From: Escherichia phage ManiMatter_Bas94
Sequence record: PQ850617.1
DNA length: 64,000 bases
Reading direction: 5' to 3' (one strand)
Shown here piece by piece: positions 60,409 through 64,000 of this stretch (positions are counted from its first letter, which is position 1; each line of letters begins with the position of its first letter). Under the pieces are notes generated by a model, which saw only the letters and a list, made by a program, of their open reading frames with translations, ran no database searches and had not been told where the DNA came from. A program made the position numbers and the translations under genes.

Positions 60409-60437
60409 ATTATGAATCATTTTGCTTCCGCCGTCAA
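60409..60437 (-). promoter_or_regulatory. Sigma70 promoter P1 (TTGACG-17-CATAAT)
   Basis: Read on the minus strand, with A-tracts upstream (gatgaaaaaagattaaaaaagtga). Confidence 0.7.
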
Positions 60438-60541
60438 TCACTTTTTTAATCTTTTTTCATCGTTCCCGCTGTTGGGAAGATATATCAATCAGCTATATTT
60501 GATTGAAGATTAAGCGATCAGGCTTGAACTTATGATTCATA

Positions 60542-60554
60542 TTTTTAAAGAGCG
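60542..60554 (-). promoter_or_regulatory. boxA-like element 2 (CGCTCTTTAAAAA)
   Basis: Lies 13-25 nt downstream of the predicted P2 start. Confidence 0.55.
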
Positions 60555-60573
60555 GTTTTTCTGACTTGTGATC

Positions 60574-60602
60574 AGTATAAACTTACTTTCTCACGTTGTC
60601 AA
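60574..60602 (-). promoter_or_regulatory. Sigma70 promoter P2 (TTGACA-17-TATACT)
   Basis: Read on the minus strand, with an A-tract upstream (gataaaaaagagat). Confidence 0.75.
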
Positions 60603-60676
60603 TCTCTTTTTTATCGTCTTCTTTGATTCTCTTCCCTTATCTCGCGTGAATCTATGCGAAAGGGCAAGACGATAAA

Positions 60677-60689
60677 TTTTTAAAGAGCG
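60677..60689 (-). promoter_or_regulatory. boxA-like element 3 (CGCTCTTTAAAAATTTATCG)
   Basis: Lies 28-40 nt downstream of P3. The similarity extends to the rrn leader TGCTCTTTAACAATTTATCA (from memory). Confidence 0.6.
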
Positions 60690-60723
60690 GGATTTTTTAA
60701 GTCATCGCTGACCTTGTACACTC

Positions 60724-60752
60724 ATTATAGGTTAGGCTTTTTCCGGTGTCAA
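60724..60752 (-). promoter_or_regulatory. Sigma70 promoter P3 (TTGACA-17-TATAAT, full consensus)
   Basis: Minus strand reads ttgaca ccggaaaaagcctaacc tataat. Confidence 0.85.
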
Positions 60753-60771
60753 TATTCTTTTTCAGAATATT
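60751..60771 (-). promoter_or_regulatory. boxB-like hairpin A (AAUAUUCU-GAAAA-AGAAUAUU)
   Basis: 8-bp stem with a GAAAA pentaloop closed by U-A, 17 nt downstream of boxA 4. It overlaps the UP/-35 edge of P3. Confidence 0.45.
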
Positions 60772-60788
60772 TTCACTTTCTAGCCTGA

Positions 60789-60801
60789 TTTTTAAAGAGC
60801 G
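60789..60801 (-). promoter_or_regulatory. boxA-like element 4 (CGCTCTTTAAAAA)
   Basis: Downstream of P4 and followed by hairpin A. Confidence 0.55.
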
Positions 60802-60944
60802 TTTAAAGCTGTATGGCTCCCATAACACCACTTGATGATCAGTTAACCTACGATCATTCAGGACTATAGTACCCGCTTAGTTGCGTCTGACTTGCTTCAC
60901 TCACTAGGGAGTTACTTGAGCGGTCATCTTGTCTTTCTAAGCTC

Positions 60945-60972
60945 ATTATAGGTTAGGCTTTTCAGTTGTCAA
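60945..60972 (-). promoter_or_regulatory. Sigma70 promoter P4 (TTGACA-16-TATAAT)
   Basis: Part of a roughly 80-bp direct repeat with the P3 unit (60721-60802 versus 60942-61022). Confidence 0.8.
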
Positions 60973-60990: not shown

Positions 60991-61008
60991 TTTCACTTTC
61001 TAGCCTAC

Positions 61009-61021
61009 TTTTTAAAGAGCG
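61009..61021 (-). promoter_or_regulatory. boxA-like element 5 (CGCTCTTTAAAAA)
   Basis: Lies 41-53 nt downstream of the predicted P5 start. Confidence 0.55.
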
Positions 61022-61068
61022 GGGCAATTTCTTGCCTTGTATGTTTTACATCGTACCCGATGGAAATG

Positions 61069-61096
61069 AGTATACGCGAGCCTTTAGAAAGTGCAA
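61069..61096 (-). promoter_or_regulatory. Sigma70 promoter P5 (TTGCAC-16-TATACT)
   Basis: Read on the minus strand, with AT-rich sequence upstream. Confidence 0.55.
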
Positions 61097-61254
61097 TAGG
61101 GGAAAGCAAATTATTTTAAACTTTTTCACTGTAGGGAAGATAGAAGAGCGGGCTGACGTGGTACACCATAGGAAACGGCTTGTAAAGCGATAATAGGCGG
61201 CCTAAAACGCACCACAATGAGCTAAAAGGGGATAAGGTATATAATCACCTTAGA

Positions 61255-61286
61255 AAAGAAAAAAGCGCCTTTATTGGCGCTTATAG
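61255..61286 (-). terminator. Rho-independent terminator
   Basis: Minus strand reads agcgcc-aataaa-ggcgct followed by tttttctttt. Confidence 0.75.
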
Positions 61287-61303
61287 GGATGATTTAAAGT
61301 TTT

Positions 61304-61555
61304 TCACCATTTAGGCAAATCTGCATCAAGTAGGCCAGCAAGTGACAATTCACCGTCAACATATATCGATCTGAAATCGTCCCGATTGATATCAATGCGT
61401 ACCATTTGCAGCCATTTTTTGGCCTCGTTAAAGCTCATTGAGCAAAAAGAAACCGTGGGCAATATTACGTCACCATTTTGCAAGCCGAACGCGATAAAAG
61501 TATCGCACACGCAGCAAGAAAGACCGTTCGACAATTTAATCTCTTTGATACTCAT
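61304..61555 (-). CDS. Hypothetical protein (83 aa), paralog of 56270..56515
   Basis: Full-length similarity to 56270..56515, roughly 60 percent aa identity by eye. Confidence 0.5.
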   Translation of the reverse strand: MSIKEIKLSNGLSCCVCDTFIAFGLQNGDVILPTVSFCSMSFNEAKKWLQMVRIDINRDDFRSIYVDGELSLAGLLDADLPKW

Positions 61556-61582
61556 GTTTTTACACTCCCAAAGATAGGTTAT

Positions 61583-61729
61583 TTATTTGCTGAATTTAGC
61601 GCCATAAAACTTACTAATCTTGTTTTTCGGGCTTAACTTGCTATCAGTGAGCGCTTCAATCACTTCACAAACGATCAGGGCAAGTAAAGGAAAAACTACA
61701 GCCATAAACATCATTACCAGAATAATCAT
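61583..61729 (-). CDS. Small membrane protein (48 aa)
   Basis: Hand translation gives MIILVMMFMAVVFPLLALIVCEVIEALTDSKLSPKNKISKFYGAKFSK. Confidence 0.4.
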   Translation of the reverse strand: MIILVMMFMAVVFPLLALIVCEVIEALTDSKLSPKNKISKFYGAKFSK

Positions 61730-61861
61730 TTCTATCACTCCAATCACTCAATCCGTAGGCTTCAATTTACTACTACTTAATAAGGAAAGCAATCACCACG
61801 GGCAAAATACTACCCGCAGAACAGACCACGGGGGAACGTGCCAGATAATGCGGTAATAATA

Positions 61862-61997
61862 TTCCACTTAAATAATTAGTTAACTATTAATAACATTACT
61901 CAAACATCAAACGTTAAAAGAAAAGAATAACAGAACGCTGAAAAAGAAAAGAATAAAAAGAAATATAATAAACATCAAACATAATCTTTCCACTTAA
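61862..61997. repeat. AT-rich region with nested short direct repeats
   Basis: ttccacttaa (61862, 61988), aacatcaaac (61903, 61971), aaaagaaaagaataa (61916, 61942). Confidence 0.7.
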
Positions 61998-62171
61998 TTA
62001 ATGCATATATCATTATTGCACTCATAATTATCACCATTGAAACTATTTACATTCAAACTATGGGGGATGGCGATAGTTGCTATCCGGTATTAATAGCCTC
62101 AATATAATCAAGCATTAACAATGGCTAGCCTTTCCCATACTCTTTTAAGGGGCACTAAATAAACGGGTATT

Positions 62172-62180
62172 AAATGTATA
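62172..62180 (+). promoter_or_regulatory. AAATGTATA variant motif (candidate promoter of the rightward operon)
   Basis: Same variant as at 36386. Followed by four ACGGG repeats (62163, 62192, 62208, 62220). Confidence 0.4.
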
Positions 62181-62411
62181 GGATGTTATACACGGGGCAA
62201 TAACTGCACGGGATAGGGCACGGGAAAAGTGGAACGTTGAAAAAGAAGGTAAAGGCATTGCCAATACCCATTTTTTAAATGAGGACTCCCCCTTTTTAAC
62301 AATTCGTCGCGGAGCGCCTAGCCCCACTCGGTCAAATCAGAATTTTAAACCCTTATATATAAGCATATGCCCCAACTTTATGTTGTGGATTTAAGCTTGA
62401 GGAACTATTTA

Positions 62412-62576
62412 ATGAATCTAATTAAAGTGTTTAGACGAATGAAATGTAAGCACAATTACTATCCTCTTCGTAAAGCTTACGGGGATGAAAGAATACACGG
62501 GCTATACTTATCAACATGGAGGTGTAGGGAATGTGGTAAGTTAAAGTTTAGTGAATGGGTAGACAGACCGGGATGA
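62412..62576 (+). CDS. Small zinc-ribbon protein (54 aa)
   Basis: ATG 62412 is preferred (gagga SD). The motifs are CKHN...CRECGK. Confidence 0.4.
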   Translation: MNLIKVFRRMKCKHNYYPLRKAYGDERIHGLYLSTWRCRECGKLKFSEWVDRPG

Positions 62577-62589
62577 TAGTGCCTTAACG

Positions 62590-62698
62590 TGACATAGCCT
62601 TTATGAAGTCCCCTTTATGACATGCCCTTTACTTCAGCGTACACGGGTTGTCAATGATGACATGGCCTTTACGGGTAGGTCTTATGATGTGCCCTTTA
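62590..62698. repeat. Iteron array, four copies of TGACATRSCCTTTA
   Basis: tgacatagccttta (62590), tgacatgcccttta (62618), tgacatggccttta (62658), tgatgtgcccttta (62685). Spacings are 28, 40 and 27 bp. Confidence 0.75.
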
Positions 62699-62747
62699 TA
62701 CTTCAGAGACAGCTACTACGTAGCGTCGTATTCAGAGGAGAAGAATT

Positions 62748-62969
62748 ATGAATTTAGTATTAGACTTTTTATCAGAGGTTGTGCCTCGCTTTCGTACGGA
62801 GACTTGTGCCTTCGTTAAAATATCCCCTGAAGAATTAGAATGCATTGGTCGTCTGGTTGACTTGGATGACGATGAAGAATTTGATGCAACGATGGAAGTT
62901 AGTAGCCTAGGATGGTTATTCTTCCGAGCGTTCACCACTATCAAACCACACACTTATAAGGAATACTAA
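62748..62969 (+). CDS. Acidic hypothetical protein (73 aa)
   Basis: ORF-track ORF with SD gaggag. Confidence 0.45.
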   Translation: MNLVLDFLSEVVPRFRTETCAFVKISPEELECIGRLVDLDDDEEFDATMEVSSLGWLFFRAFTTIKPHTYKEY

Positions 62970-63002
62970 TTTATGTTAGATTGTAAATATCAAGGAGATG
63001 AT

Positions 63003-63404
63003 ATGTTAGATTTAATCCACACTACTCGCCCTAATTCTAAAACTAAAACACAACCATCTACTCTGGAAGTAATTGAATACGAATCTACTAAACATGATCA
63101 CCTCCCTGACTATGCTCGTGCAATGATTGAGATGATTGAAGAAGCTGAATATGAAATGCTCCATGATTACATCACCTCCAAAGATGAATGGCATCGTGAT
63201 GTTCGAATCGAAGAAGATGGTACAGAAACAATTACGTGGATTCACAAGAGTGAGTTAGTAGACGACGCACTGCGAGACTACGAAAAATTTTTGGTCGACG
63301 GCTCTATTCTTTTAGAGGAAGAGAAGGGTGTAGAACTTCCGTGGGAGGGTGAGACAGTTGCTTTAGGTAAGATGTTTAACCTGTCCGTTGGTGATTGTAA
63401 GTAA
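63003..63404 (+). CDS. Acidic hypothetical protein (133 aa)
   Basis: ATG 63003 is preferred (aaggag, 5 nt). The listed start at 62973 is an alternative. Confidence 0.45.
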   Translation: MLDLIHTTRPNSKTKTQPSTLEVIEYESTKHDHLPDYARAMIEMIEEAEYEMLHDYITSKDEWHRDVRIEEDGTETITWIHKSELVDDALRDYEKFLVDGSILLEEEKGVELPWEGETVALGKMFNLSVGDCK

Positions 63405-63409
63405 TGTTT

Positions 63410-63432
63410 GCCTCCTTTGGGAGGCTTTTTGT
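63410..63432 (+). terminator. Rho-independent terminator
   Basis: gcctcc-tttg-ggaggc followed by tttttgtg. Confidence 0.8.
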
Positions 63433-63460
63433 GTTGTTGATAATGTAGAAGGAGTATAAA

Positions 63461-63931
63461 ATGTTTGGAGAAAACGGAGGACTCACACCTGCACAGGTAG
63501 CTGAGATTACAGGAAGATTACCCGGAGTAACGGAAGAACTTGAATCCAAGGGTATGAACCCAAGCAATGGGAAGTTTCAAAAGGGAAATAAATTCGGACG
63601 ACCCAAAGGTAGTAGAGGTAAACTGACACAATTAATGTTGGACCGTGTTGCTGCAAGTCATTTGTCTCCTGATGAAGTGTTAATTCAAATTTACGAAGAT
63701 CCTAATATTCCACCTGATCTTAGATTCAAGGCTGCATCAAAAGTTGCAGATCTGGTATATCCTAAGGCGGCCTCTGTTGAAGTTAAGATTGAGGAAGAGA
63801 ATGTAGTCAACGAAGAATCACTGAATGCACAAATCAAGGACTTCTTGACTGGAGCACTTGGTATCGACGTTATGCCTCCAGAAGACAACTCCGAGGACGC
63901 TGAAAAGGGGGAGGAAGCGGACGAGAGTTAA
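63461..63931 (+). CDS. Terminase small subunit candidate (GRPKG-motif DNA-binding protein)
   Basis: FQKGNKFGRPKGSRGK is a motif I associate with phage proteins encoded next to large terminase genes. Acidic C-terminus. Located at the start of the rightward morphogenesis operon. Confidence 0.4.
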   Translation: MFGENGGLTPAQVAEITGRLPGVTEELESKGMNPSNGKFQKGNKFGRPKGSRGKLTQLMLDRVAASHLSPDEVLIQIYEDPNIPPDLRFKAASKVADLVYPKAASVEVKIEEENVVNEESLNAQIKDFLTGALGIDVMPPEDNSEDAEKGEEADES

Positions 63932-63961
63932 TTAAAGGAAAGAAGGGGAGGTTCTTTGACG

Positions 63962-63986
63962 AAGGGACTTTCCCTTTTCTATTTTT
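63962..63986 (+). terminator. Hairpin plus T-run
   Basis: aaggga-ctt-tccctt followed by ttctattttt. Confidence 0.5.
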
Positions 63987-64000
63987 AAACTGGAGGAAGT

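What the first reader, a model, noticed from the sequence alone, without database searches (positions are those of the whole stretch)
62590..62698. Iteron array (4 x TGACATRSCCTTTA) upstream of the rightward operon that begins with a small-terminase-like gene
Four direct repeats lie at 62590, 62618, 62658 and 62685, plus a partial copy at 62608. They are spaced 27-40 bp apart in a 170-bp ORF-free stretch. Two copies are followed by CTTCAG.

Ordered arrays of this kind typically bind an oligomeric DNA-binding protein. Plausible roles are a small-terminase recognition (pac/cos-like) site, a replication origin, or an operator array. The location next to the probable genome-end / packaging region and about 770 bp upstream of the GRPKG-motif protein favours packaging.
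Basis: seen in the sequence. Interest (0 to 1): 0.55.

Follow-up and report, generated by a model that had tools for sequence, protein, structure and literature searches.

The report
Conserved repeat array near phage terminus
Six short direct repeats about 450 bp inside the left end of a phiEco32-like E. coli phage genome are real, recur in diverged form beside the small-terminase gene of many related phages, and most likely help the DNA-packaging enzyme recognise the phage chromosome, which no experiment has yet tested.

Summary
The repeats are real. There are six same-strand units of RTGA-N4-SCCTTWA at 62573-62698, against 0.31 expected in 64 kb, and none elsewhere in the window.

The window is a Kuravirus (phiEco32-like). 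By homology its physical left end is at 62127 and its 193-bp direct terminal repeat (DTR) is 62127-62319. The array lies 254-379 bp beyond the DTR, between two small genes. It is not directly upstream of the packaging genes: two genes, a terminator and the gp36-type late promoter separate it from the PaP3-type small-terminase gene (63461-63931).

Units occur in all 25 Kuravirus/Suseptimavirus relatives examined. Diverged arrays (TATGAC-N3-4-SSCAT...), each followed by YCAGNGT(A), lie upstream of the small-terminase (TerS) homologue in 7-11, GAP52, ECO319P1, Privateer, LAh_8, TacPo2 and several metagenomic contigs. The mapped Kuravirus left end is cut just after the same syntax (SCCTTWA ... CAGNG ... 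CT|AGCC).

Best reading (about 0.45): a TerS recognition array within the packaging signal flanking the DTR, analogous to T7 SRL/SRR and lambda cosB. Unit-to-unit recombination and insertion of tiny ORFs between units look secondary. Origin, operator, promoter and RNA readings are poorly supported. I found no published description.

The parts
62573..62587 (+). Unit 0 (ATGATAGTGCCTTAA), weak 'TAA-type' unit overlapping the stop codon of the Zn-ribbon gene
   Evidence: Matches RTGANNNNSCCTTWA. Scores 12.3 bits with the relatives-only PWM. The same position holds TGGATAGGCCTTAA in relatives.
62589..62603 (+). Unit 1 (GTGACATAGCCTTTA)
   Evidence: (22.2 bits).
62603..62617 (+).
   Evidence: (22.4 bits). 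Conserved as TGAAGTCCCCTTTA in many relatives.
62617..62631 (+). Unit 3 (ATGACATGCCCTTTA)
   Evidence: (23.6 bits). It is the left partner of the exact unit3 x unit5 deletion seen in phage LAMP.
62634..62641 (+). TCAGCGTA element following unit 3. It is the Kuravirus form of the YCAGNGT(A) element that follows unit groups in all related phages.
   Evidence: The same element (CAGTG/CAGAG) lies 3-6 nt before the mapped left genome end in 14 of the 16 relatives with informative upstream sequence.
62657..62671 (+). Unit 4 (ATGACATGGCCTTTA), the best match to the family consensus
   Evidence: (27.1 bits).
62684..62698 (+). Unit 5 (ATGATGTGCCCTTTA)
   Evidence: (23.9 bits).
62703..62709 (+). TCAGAGA element following unit 5 (second 'CTTCAG')
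62127..62319 (.). Direct terminal repeat (DTR), placed by homology. 62127 is the physical left end. Both boundaries read CT|AGCC.
   Evidence: The LAMP and Paul records start at the base homologous to 62127. Annotated DTRs are 172 bp in LAMP and 193 bp in Paul and YF01. A 193-bp DTR is reported for phiEco32, SU10 and YF01 (PMC4281155, PMC9965538). Boundaries were aligned. The right boundary could be 62298 if LAMP's 172-bp annotation applies.
62112..62126 (+). Degenerate module (GCATTAA-CAATGGCT) abutting the left-end cut site. Relatives carry SCCTTWA ... CAGNG here.
62283..62298 (+). GGACTCCCCCTTTTTA, the most conserved block of the DTR. It resembles the 3' half of a unit and is conserved as far as 7-11, GAP52, Privateer and LAh_8.
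   Evidence: PMC9965538 notes that DTR positions ~130-170 are highly conserved. PMC4281155 describes the CCCTTTTTTA repeats.
62250..62263 (-). Reverse-strand unit-like sequence TGGCAATGCCTTTA inside the DTR (3 mismatches). Its significance is uncertain.
   Evidence: It is conserved in relatives, but two other 3-mismatch hits occur by chance in the window.
62367..62576 (+). CDS1, a 69-aa CxxC...CxxC Zn-ribbon protein (context, not part of the array's conserved partnership)
   Evidence: Homologues occur almost only in E. coli/Shigella Kuravirus-group phages, with none in the distant array-bearing phages.
62748..63404 (+). CDS2 (73 aa, phiEco32 gp4 homologue) and CDS3 (143 aa, gp5 homologue), lying between the array and the late operon
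63410..63448 (+). Intrinsic terminator (63410-63425) followed by the gp36-type late promoter TAATGTAGA (63440-63448)
   Evidence: The sequence matches the SU10 late promoter '1480 gttgataatgtagaaggagtataaaatg' (PMC4281155 S2 table).
63461..63931 (+). Putative small terminase (PaP3/NV1 type), the candidate binder of the units
   Evidence: It lies immediately upstream of TerL in all relatives. In the profile search against PDB the top two hits are the only entries named small terminase: 7joq at E=0.0029 and 6w7t (PaP3) at E=0.094. There is a weak DUF5681 hit. A published HHpred assignment exists for the YF01 homologue (PMC9965538).

Best explanation
The array is part of the phage's packaging signal. 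It is a set of same-oriented binding sites for the oligomeric PaP3-type small terminase (TerS, 63461-63931), placed just inside the left end of the genome.

In the replicative concatemer, related elements sit on both sides of the 193-bp terminal repeat. A unit or half-unit plus CAGNG lies immediately before the left cut (…CAGTGCT|AGCC). A CCCCCTTTTTA block lies near the right cut (…GCGCCT|AGCC). The main array of five or six full units (RTGA-N4-SCCTTWA, two of them followed by TCAGNG) lies 254-379 bp further in.

Inferred mechanism: TerS HTH pairs read the two conserved half-sites of each unit, TGA and CCTTTA, whose centres are about 10 bp apart. Several units together load a TerS ring. This marks the DNA as phage and positions TerL, possibly with a helper nuclease, to cut at the CT|AGCC boundaries and start packaging.

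Shown here: the array's existence, its exclusivity, its conservation, its co-occurrence with TerS, and the shared syntax at the mapped end. Inferred: that TerS is the binder, and the loading and cutting steps.

Secondary consequence: the repeated units act as recombination joints, so relatives have gained or lost units and tiny ORFs between them.
For: 1. The units are far beyond chance and confined to this one spot in 64 kb.

2. All 25 Kuravirus/Suseptimavirus left ends examined carry 2-6 units in the same place and orientation. TGA and CCTTWA are invariant while the middle positions vary freely. That is the pattern of a bipartite protein site.

3. Diverged but clearly homologous arrays lie upstream of the TerS homologue (50-63% identity over residues ~31-105) in Salmonella 7-11, Cronobacter GAP52, ECO319P1, Proteus Privateer, Aeromonas LAh_8, Pantoea TacPo2 and the metagenomic contigs L037 and L039, and by eye in L038 and L040. 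The general pattern ATGR-N4-SCMT is about 13-fold enriched on the TerS strand within 1 kb upstream of TerS: 32 hits in 10.8 kb against 20 in 88 kb. This pattern was derived post hoc.

4. In 7-11 and its relatives no gp4/gp5 genes intervene. The order is array, then the mapped late promoter, then TerS. The conserved partner is therefore TerS and the terminus, not the neighbouring Kuravirus genes. CDS1 homologues are absent from these phages.

5. Spacing is partly conserved: 40+27 bp in the window against 40+28 in GAP52 and ECO319P1, and 27, 27, 26 in 7-11.

6. The experimentally mapped left end of Kuraviruses is cut 3-6 nt after CAGNG, with SCCTTWA 0-25 nt upstream, in 14 of the 16 relatives with informative upstream sequence, although the surrounding sequence is otherwise divergent.

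7. In contig L037 five units persist inside a 269-aa ORF and are read in different frames. The constraint is therefore on the nucleotide sequence, not the protein.

8. The gene is a PaP3/NV1-type TerS by profile search and by published HHpred (PMC9965538). PaP3 TerS binds its 20-bp cos sequence specifically through paired HTHs (PMC7672466). That sequence, GCCGGCCCCTTTCCGCGTTA (the start of the PaP3 record), contains GCCCCTTTCC, which resembles the unit 3' half and the Kuravirus left end AGCCTTTCCC.

9. There is a textbook precedent. T7 has a 13-nt-period CCTAAAG array (SRL, nt 175-341) directly after its 160-bp terminal repeat, with further copies inside the repeat.
Against: - There are no binding, footprinting or packaging data for any phage of this group, so the identity of the binder is pure inference. 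Every core gene co-varies with the array across these clades, not only TerS.
- The array is 254-379 bp from the nearer DTR boundary, with a promoter and a gene in between. That is further than lambda cosB lies from cosN.
- The geometry is not fixed. LAMP has lost two units, phiEco32 and ES17 have 182 bp (a small ORF) between units, and other relatives have 2-6 units at varied spacings. A rigid TerS-ring wrapping model does not predict this.
- The units are not in helical phase (1.33, 1.52, 2.57 and 3.81 turns).
- In the window itself the module at the left cut site is degenerate (CAATGG, GCATTAA).
- Local alignment between the cut-site flank and the array is not significant: score 17 against a shuffle mean of 16.6.
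- The TerS monomer model was low-confidence (pLDDT 65) and the fold search was uninformative.
- The physical ends of the distant phages are not known to me, so their array-to-terminus distance is inferred only from the conserved CCCCTTTT...CT|AG block.
Confidence: 0.45

Rival explanations
1. The units are junction or boundary repeats with no dedicated binding protein. They would be short conserved sequences at the borders of tiny optional ORF cassettes. Homologous recombination and gene conversion would maintain them, and they would drive gain and loss of those cassettes, much like T4-type PeSL cassettes or lambdoid boundary sequences.
For: In relatives the units flank three optional small ORFs: a 26-aa hydrophobic ORF after CDS1, a ~45-aa acidic ORF between units, and a ~40-aa ORF before gp4. 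The window, Bas93 and LAMP lack all three and keep only the junctions. 'cttcagcgtacacgggttgt' in the window looks like the fused leader and 3' end of the acidic ORF. The LAMP deletion is an exact unit3 x unit5 recombinant.
Against: 7-11, GAP52, Privateer, LAh_8 and TacPo2 carry homologous arrays with no ORF cassettes between units. Concerted evolution alone would not keep TGA/TATGAC and the C-rich half across phages whose TerS is only ~50% identical while the unit centres drift. The same syntax at the mapped terminus has no explanation under this model.
Confidence: 0.15
2. The units are binding sites for a different phage or host DNA-binding protein. Possible roles are an operator or roadblock array controlling the small rightward left-end operon, or a factor that organises the first-entering or last-packaged DNA end.
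For: The array lies within a transcribed early or left-end unit, downstream of a conserved promoter-like block (62330-62362) and upstream of gp4/gp5. All units share one orientation. The bipartite conservation pattern fits any sequence-specific binder.
Against: No sigma70-type promoter or terminator overlaps the units. The adjacent Zn-ribbon protein is absent from the distant phages that have arrays. In those phages the flanking transcription units differ, with a late promoter immediately downstream, so a conserved operator role is hard to picture. No candidate regulator was identified.
Confidence: 0.12
3. The array is a replication origin: iterons bound by an initiator.
For: It consists of direct repeats near a genome end, close to the point where coding strand and GC skew switch. 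A 24%-GC, ORF-free stretch lies about 500 bp to the left, at 61840-62060.
Against: The units are 14-16 bp and out of helical phase. The array has 44% GC and no adjacent AT-rich unwinding element. No DnaA or IHF consensus sites occur in 61000-64000. No initiator gene is nearby. The number and spacing of units vary freely and ORFs can sit between them. The GC-skew switch coincides with the change in transcription direction and so is uninformative.
Confidence: 0.07
4. The function is at the RNA or translation level. Either the units form a relay of overlapping mini-ORFs (ATGACATGGCCTTTATGA = M-T-W-P-L-stop) that couples translation from CDS1 to gp4, or they form a structured or protein-bound RNA element.
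For: In the window, ATGA and TAA-N-RTG overlaps link CDS1, three mini-ORFs, a 44-aa ORF (62617-62751) and the gp4 start at 62748. The position before TGA is always A or G, never C or T. 16-nt-period units use CCTTAA while 14-nt-period units use CCTTTA|TGA.
Against: The RNA fold is no better than shuffles (z = +0.37) and there is no Rfam match. In 7-11, GAP52 and similar phages there is no upstream gene to couple from. In L037 the units lie inside one long ORF in changing frames. The spacing between the last two units is 25 or 27 bp in different relatives, so the frame is not kept.
Confidence: 0.05

Closest known systems
Phage T7 short-repeat arrays SRL/SRR flanking the terminal repeat
   Same: T7 is also a DTR podophage. 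Its array of short same-strand repeats (CCTAAAG core, 13-nt period, nt 175-341) starts just after the 160-bp terminal repeat, and further copies lie inside the repeat. The Kuravirus arrangement is similar: unit-like elements before, within and after the 193-bp DTR. As far as I know, neither function has been demonstrated.
   Different: The sequences are unrelated. T7's array abuts the repeat and precedes the early promoters, whereas here a promoter and a gene separate the DTR from the array. T7 TerS (gp18) belongs to a different family, and T7 packaging is linked to its own RNA polymerase, which these phages lack (PMC4281155).
Lambda cosB (R1-R3 gpNu1 sites) and related multi-site TerS recognition regions (P1 pac hexamers, SPP1 pacL/pacR)
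   Same: These regions contain several short repeats of a TerS recognition sequence beside the cut site and near the terminase genes. An oligomeric HTH small terminase reads them to position the nuclease (established knowledge, not tested here).
   Different: The distance to the cut is larger here (254-460 bp). All units are direct repeats. No IHF site is present. The end product is a DTR rather than cohesive or headful ends. Binding is unproven.
PaP3 cos site bound by PaP3 TerS (PDB 6w7t; PMC7672466)
   Same: The TerS belongs to the same structural family by profile search. Sequence-specific binding of a ~20-bp site by two neighbouring HTHs has been shown in vitro. The PaP3 cos sequence contains GCCCCTTTCC, which resembles the unit 3' half SCCCTTTA and the Kuravirus end AGCCTTTCCC.
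   Different: PaP3 is described as a cos phage with one 20-nt cohesive end. No array was reported there; I saw only one full unit-like sequence (ATGAGTGGCCATCAGTC, 423-441) and two partial ones. The resemblance spans 8-10 bp and could be chance.
T4-type PeSL mobile regulatory cassettes and lambdoid boundary sequences
   Same: In both cases repeated short noncoding elements flank small optional ORFs, and recombination occurs between the copies.
   Different: PeSLs are early promoters plus stem-loops scattered through hyperplastic regions. Here there is no promoter or hairpin in the units, there is a single locus, and arrays exist in relatives without any cassettes.
Plasmid or phage origin iterons
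   Same: Both are tandem direct repeats in a noncoding stretch.
   Different: The length, phasing, AT-rich neighbour, DnaA/IHF sites and initiator gene expected of iterons are all missing.

Membership tests
Small-terminase recognition site (pac/cosB-type) | Specific binding by the phage's TerS | not testable with these tools
   Needs EMSA, footprinting or ChIP. Only indirect support is available: co-occurrence with TerS across clades.
Small-terminase recognition site (pac/cosB-type) | Location close to the packaging cut site or genome terminus and to the terminase genes | tested here: met
   The array lies 447-572 bp from the homology-placed left end and 254-379 bp from the DTR's right boundary. 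It is 763 bp upstream of TerS in the window and 100-250 bp upstream in 7-11, GAP52 and TacPo2.
Small-terminase recognition site (pac/cosB-type) | Conserved among relatives and co-varying with TerS specificity | tested here: inconclusive
   Units are conserved in all 25 close relatives. The 3' half changes between clades whose TerS is ~50% identical: CCTTTA, CCATCWA, GGCATGW. With only 3-4 clades, all genes co-vary.
Small-terminase recognition site (pac/cosB-type) | Required in cis for packaging | not testable with these tools
   Needs a deletion or transduction assay. LAMP tolerates the loss of 2 of 6 units.
Small-terminase recognition site (pac/cosB-type) | The neighbouring gene really is a small terminase | tested here: inconclusive
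   The best two PDB profile hits are TerS of NV1 and PaP3, but they are weak (E=0.0029 and 0.094). Synteny with TerL is universal. The AlphaFold monomer was poor and the fold search empty. A published HHpred assignment exists.
T7-type terminal short-repeat arrays (SRL/SRR) | DTR genome with short same-strand repeats flanking, and partly inside, the terminal repeat | tested here: met
   T7 was checked. For Kuravirus. In Kuravirus the left-flank element is a single module and the main array is offset by about 254 bp.
T7-type terminal short-repeat arrays (SRL/SRR) | Sequence or protein homology with the T7 system | tested here: not met
   The unit sequences are unrelated (CCTAAAG against RTGA-N4-SCCTTWA). 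No Pfam or PHROG match linked the TerS-like protein to a named terminase family; its only terminase matches are PaP3/NV1-type TerS. I did not compare it with T7 gp18 directly.
Replication-origin iterons | Repeats of ~17-22 bp in helical phase, next to an AT-rich unwinding element and host-factor sites | tested here: not met
   Units are 14-16 bp. Spacings are 1.33-3.81 turns. The array has 44% GC. No DnaA or IHF consensus occurs in 61000-64000.
Replication-origin iterons | Cognate initiator gene adjacent, and origin activity | not testable with these tools
   No initiator-like domain was found in the four flanking proteins. Origin mapping needs experiments.
Tandem sigma70 or gp36 promoters | -35/-10 hexamers at 16-18 bp, or the tAATGTATA element | tested here: not met
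   The scan found no promoter in 62577-62747. By eye, the best -35/-10 combinations need 19-20 bp spacers. The gp36 motif is absent from the units, and the real late promoter is at 63440-63448.
PeSL-like mobile regulatory cassettes | Each repeat carries an early promoter and a stem-loop and flanks variable ORFs | tested here: not met
   The units do flank variable ORFs in some relatives. They contain no promoter and no stable structure. Arrays also exist without ORFs between units.
LUZ24/tf-type localized nick sites (TACT/RTGMC) | Nine-base consensus, many copies, all on one strand across the genome | tested here: not met
   The window has only 3 consensus sites, on mixed strands and none in the array. 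The units share only TATGAC/RTGAC with the consensus (PMC3517423).

The most novel reading that the evidence does not exclude
'Unit + YCAGNG' is the complete recognition-and-cut signal of a PaP3-type terminase (or a helper nuclease), and the internal array is a set of extra or decoy cut-competent sites. This would mean two things.

(a) The phage can shift its terminal-repeat boundaries, or form alternative ends, by choosing among modules. That could explain the different DTR lengths reported in this group: 53, 172, 193 and 206 bp as reported or annotated, and about 249 bp by my boundary estimate.

(b) The same elements double as recombination joints that shuffle tiny early genes at the genome end. 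Packaging-site repeats would then be driving gene-cassette turnover.
Probability: 0.12. Interest if true: 0.65.

Novelty: new member of a known kind. Interest (0 to 1): 0.5.

Why it matters
How short-DTR phages that lack a T7-like RNA polymerase recognise and cut their concatemers is an acknowledged gap; the SU10 authors call the mechanism 'completely different and unknown' (PMC4281155).

This analysis supplies a concrete, conserved candidate cis-element, and a defined partner protein of a TerS family that already has solved structures (PaP3, NV1). The hypothesis can therefore be tested directly by EMSA, cryo-EM or deletion.

The element spans phages of Escherichia, Salmonella, Cronobacter, Proteus, Aeromonas and Pantoea, several of them therapy candidates. 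Knowing the packaging signal matters for engineering these phages, for predicting transduction, and for setting genome starts correctly in annotation.

If the TerS reading is wrong, the array is still an unusually well conserved noncoding element that needs explaining.

Tried and rejected
- **N4-like hairpin promoters.** This was my first guess from genome size. I dropped it once BLAST showed the window is a Kuravirus.
- **Sigma70 promoter array.** The units contain TGACA, but no acceptable -10 sits at 16-18 bp and the scan found nothing.
- **Sigma54 (TGGCAC-N5-TTGC) and the gp36 late-promoter motif.** The defining GG/GC dinucleotides and the TAATGTATA element are absent from the units.
- **Structured RNA.** The fold z-score is +0.37, there is no Rfam hit and no tRNA.
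- **Coding repeat.** The unit frame is not conserved (spacings of 25 or 27 bp), and the units are read in several frames in L037.
- **Ancient duplication of the DTR junction.** The local alignment is not significant.
- **tf/LUZ24 nick sites.** The consensus is not enriched or strand-biased.
- **CDS1 (Zn-ribbon) as the binder.** It is absent from the distant array-bearing phages.
- **TerS structure.** The AlphaFold monomer was poor (pLDDT 65, pTM 0.28) and the Foldseek search against PDB found nothing. A single-sequence PDB search also found nothing.
- **IMG/VR searches.** These yielded only 5 relatives, all duplicates of GenBank phages.
- **Primary papers.** The phiEco32 papers (PMC2587145, PMC3275717) are not held in the library, so the original end-mapping and transcription maps are cited only through later papers.
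- **Literature search for the motif.** It found nothing relevant.
Full report
**What the window is**

Megablast of 61800-64000 finds 97 phage records. All are phiEco32-like podophages of E. coli or Shigella (genus Kuravirus and allies). The closest are Bas93 (95.6%), Bas92 and LAMP.

The LAMP and Paul records begin at the base homologous to window 62127. Their first 172 bp (LAMP) or 193 bp (Paul, from PhageTerm) are annotated as a direct terminal repeat (DTR). YF01 carries the same 193-bp annotation. Published work gives 193-bp blunt-ended DTRs for phiEco32, SU10 and YF01 (PMC4281155, PMC9965538).

By homology, then, the physical left end of this genome is at 62127 and the DTR is 62127-62319. 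Both boundaries read CT|AGCC.

**The observation**

The repeats exist as described.
- Three copies match TGACATRSCCTTTA exactly, with 0 expected.
- The fourth copy has two mismatches.
- The 'partial' copy is a full unit starting at 62604.
- A sixth, weaker unit overlaps the stop codon of the upstream gene.

The generalised unit RTGA-N4-SCCTTWA occurs six times in the 64-kb window. All six are on the + strand within 62573-62698, against 0.31 expected.

A weight matrix built only from other phages scores the five strong copies at 22-27 bits. The best score elsewhere is 12.5 and the best in shuffles is 16.5.

Spacings are 16, 14, 14, 40 and 27 bp.

The array lies between a 69-aa Zn-ribbon gene (62367-62576) and a 73-aa gene (62748-62969; the phiEco32 gp4 homologue). 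A 143-aa gp5 homologue follows.

After these come an intrinsic terminator at 63410-63425 and the sequence gttgaTAATGTAgaaggagtataaaATG. The SU10 paper lists this same sequence as the gp36-sigma late promoter in front of the equivalent gene.

The late packaging and structural operon therefore starts at 63461. The array belongs to a separate small left-end transcription unit that the SU10 authors class as early.

The 156-aa product of 63461-63931 sits directly before TerL in every relative. Its family profile's two best PDB matches are the small terminases of Pseudomonas phages NV1 (7joq, E=0.0029) and PaP3 (6w7t, E=0.094). The YF01 paper reached the same assignment with HHpred. My AlphaFold monomer was too poor to add anything.

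**Close relatives**

I fetched 25 Kuravirus and Suseptimavirus left ends. Every one has 2-6 units at the same place and in the same orientation.

Within units, TGA (preceded by A or G) and CCTT(T/A)A are invariant, while the five or six positions between them vary freely.

Unit number and spacing differ between phages, and the differences begin and end at units.
- LAMP lacks 62622-62689 through an exact recombination between units 3 and 5.
- Bas93 has an 18-bp insertion beside unit 4.
- phiEco32, ES17 and others have a ~45-aa ORF (182 bp) between two units.
- Others have a 26-aa hydrophobic ORF after the Zn-ribbon gene, or a ~40-aa ORF before gp4.

At this stage the best reading seemed to be 'cassette-junction repeats'. 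The window would then be an 'empty' version: 'cttcagcgtacacgggttgt' looks like the fused leader and tail of the missing acidic ORF.

**Distant relatives change the picture**

A tblastn search with the TerS-like protein finds homologues at 50-63% identity over residues ~31-105. These occur in Grimontviridae (Salmonella 7-11, Cronobacter GAP52, ECO319P1, Proteus Privateer), Aeromonas Lahexavirus, Pantoea TacPo2 and others.

Upstream of each TerS gene, the strongest direct-repeat family is a recognisably related unit:
- 7-11: TATGACCTCCCATCAA, ATGACAAGCCATCAATCAGTG, TATGATATCCCATCTATCAGTG, TATGAATAGCCATCAA.
- GAP52: TATGACCTCGCATCAA, and two more units.
- Privateer: ATATGACCTGCCATCAA and TATGACATGGCATTAT, among five units.
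- LAh_8: TATGAGTAGGCATGT and TATGACTGGGCATGT, among others.
- TacPo2: TTATGACATGGCATGT and TTATGACTAGGCATG, among others.

In every case groups of units are followed by T(T/C)CAGTGT(A). This is the counterpart of the window's TCAGCGTA.

Spacing is partly conserved. GAP52 and ECO319P1 have 40 and 28 bp, against 40 and 27 in the window. 7-11 has 27, 27 and 26.

These phages have no gp4/gp5 genes and no ORFs between units. In 7-11 the array runs straight into the experimentally mapped late promoter of gene 1 (GTAAtg-N16-aCTA; PMC8948821).

The post hoc pattern ATGR-N4-SCMT occurs 32 times on the TerS strand in the 1 kb upstream of TerS across 11 loci (2.95 per kb). Elsewhere in those loci the rate is 0.23 per kb.

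The metagenomic relatives behave in the same way.
- L037 (TerS 72% identical) has five Kuravirus-type units plus two more directly before TerS.
- L038 has CCCCTTC-type units by eye.
- L039 has weaker units.
- L040 has TATGACCTCCCACGGGG-type units plus repeated TTCAGTGT.

In L037 the five units lie inside a 269-aa gp5-like ORF and are read in different frames. The constraint is therefore on the DNA sequence.

Homologues of the neighbouring Zn-ribbon protein occur almost only in the E. coli/Shigella group, with none in the distant array-bearing phages. It is not the conserved partner.

**Link to the terminus**

In 14 of the 16 Kuravirus-group relatives with informative sequence to the left of the DTR, the mapped left-end cut lies 3-6 nt after CAG(T/A/G)G. 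A unit or its 3' half (SCCTTWA) lies 0-25 nt further upstream. An example is TATGATTGTGCCTTA-TCAGAGTA-T|AGCC in ev_rybdy3. The rest of that flank is not conserved.

The DTR's most conserved block, GGACTCCCCCTTTTTA (62283-62298), resembles a unit 3' half. It is recognisable in 7-11, GAP52, Privateer and LAh_8, and in all but 7-11 it is followed about 20 nt later by CT|AG.

In a concatemer, unit-like elements would therefore flank the terminal repeat on both sides and also occur within it.

In the window itself the left-flank module is degenerate (GCATTAA-CAATGGCT). Direct alignment of that flank with the array is not significant. This link therefore rests on the family as a whole rather than on this genome.

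**Interpretation**

The most economical explanation is that the units are recognition sites for the small terminase and form part of the packaging signal. Several lines point this way.
- The conserved partners across roughly ten lineages are the TerS gene and the terminus.
- The conservation pattern is that of a bipartite protein site, with two half-sites about one helical turn apart.
- The constraint acts on DNA.
- The mapped cut site carries the same syntax.

There is experimental precedent. PaP3-family TerS is a nonamer that binds a ~20-bp site specifically through two adjacent HTHs (PMC7672466). The PaP3 cos 20-mer, GCCGGCCCCTTTCCGCGTTA, forms the first bases of the PaP3 record. It contains GCCCCTTTCC, which is close to the unit's 3' half and to the Kuravirus end AGCCTTTCCC. 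I treat that as suggestive only.

T7 offers the nearest textbook analogue: a 13-nt-period CCTAAAG array (SRL) immediately after its 160-bp repeat, with copies inside the repeat.

The recombination and ORF insertions between units in Kuraviruses then look like side effects of having many short direct repeats in one place.

I put this reading at about 0.45. Nobody has shown binding. The array is 254-379 bp from the nearest DTR boundary. Its geometry is clearly not fixed, which argues against a rigid wrapping model. And any core protein would co-vary with it.

**Rivals**

- Pure junction or recombination repeats (0.15). This fails to explain the cassette-free arrays in distant phages and the syntax at the terminus.
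- Sites for another regulator (0.12). This remains possible, but there is no candidate protein and no promoter overlap.
- Replication origin (0.07). This lacks every expected feature: units of 14-16 bp that are out of phase, 44% GC, no DnaA or IHF sites, and no initiator gene.
- RNA or translation-level function (0.05). The mini-ORF chain in the window is striking (ATGACATGGCCTTTATGA = MTWPL-stop, linked by ATGA overlaps through to gp4). It is not conserved in frame, has no upstream gene in 7-11-type phages, and the RNA does not fold better than shuffles.
- Not considered further: sigma70, sigma54 and gp36 promoters, and tf-type nick sites.

**Novelty**

The SU10 and YF01 papers that I searched for repeat-related terms mention only the repeats inside the DTR. 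A full-text search for the motif found nothing relevant. The primary phiEco32 papers were not available to me.

I class the array as a new member of a known kind, namely multi-site terminase recognition or terminal short-repeat arrays. Interest is moderate. It gives a concrete, testable cis-element and partner protein for the unsolved question of how these RNA-polymerase-less DTR phages recognise and cut their concatemers.

Noticed in passing
window 60409-60972, minus strand: Four near-consensus sigma70 promoters lie within 560 bp. Two are perfect TTGACA-N16/17-TATAAT, and all point leftward. This is presumably the strong early promoter cluster described for phiEco32 and SU10.
   Followed up: partly
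window 61840-62060: A ~220-bp stretch of 24% GC, free of long ORFs and purine-rich on the + strand, lies just left of the DTR. AT skew flips from -0.256 (60-61 kb) to +0.162 (61-62 kb). It could be an unwinding element, promoter UP region or entry/exit signal; its role is unexplained.
   Followed up: no
window 61797-62642, + strand: CACGGG is clustered: 7 of the window's 13 + strand copies lie in this 850-bp stretch around the terminus, three of them inside the DTR (62191, 62207, 62219) and one inside the array (62642). L040 has analogous TCACGGGGA repeats. This looks like a second terminal repeat family.
   Followed up: partly
window 62125-62130 and 62318-62323: Both homology-placed DTR boundaries share the sequence CT|AGCC. 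This suggests a common nuclease cut motif at the two ends of the repeat.
   Followed up: partly
window 62172-62184: TTAAATGTATAGG inside the DTR matches 8 of 9 positions of the gp36-sigma promoter element tAATGTATA (Paul has GGTAATGTATTGG). This may be an unreported late promoter reading rightward out of the terminal repeat.
   Followed up: no
window 62973-63404; locus L037 1566-2375: The gp5 homologue (PHROG 12176, labelled 'ABC transporter', which looks like a mis-propagated name) is N-terminally short here: 143 aa, aligning to profile positions 53-210. Other Kuraviruses have 172-218 aa. In metagenomic contig L037 a 269-aa version extends through a five-unit array.
   Followed up: partly
relatives L004, L005, L007, L008, L016, L017, L019-L021, L023, L026 (between the Zn-ribbon gene and gp4): Three tiny optional ORFs come and go between units: a 26-aa hydrophobic peptide (MEIIFWLVIVFCLFICFSIARCIKYD), a ~45-aa acidic protein, and a ~40-aa protein (MKFLKELHSLIYKDIVYSV...). 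Most are unannotated in GenBank records.
   Followed up: partly
locus L041 (PaP3) 1-20 and 423-441: The PaP3 cos 20-mer contains GCCCCTTTCC, which resembles the unit 3' half. PaP3 also has ATGAGTGGCCATCAGTC, a near-perfect 7-11-type unit plus CAGT, about 420 bp from its end. A tf primer near nick sci-2 (TAGCCATCAGTCACCACCA, PMC3517423) carries the same GCCATCAGTC.
   Followed up: partly
window 62710-62733: A 24-nt block (CAGCTACTACGTAGCGTCGTATTC), containing the palindrome CTACGTAG within an imperfect hairpin, is present only in the window, LAMP, Bas92 and Bas93, just upstream of the gp4 RBS. Other Kuraviruses lack it.
   Followed up: no
loci L038 1247-1702 and L040 2028-2504: In some distant relatives an HNH endonuclease gene lies immediately upstream of, or close to, the TerS gene. 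It could be a helper nuclease for end formation, as in HK97-type phages.
   Followed up: no
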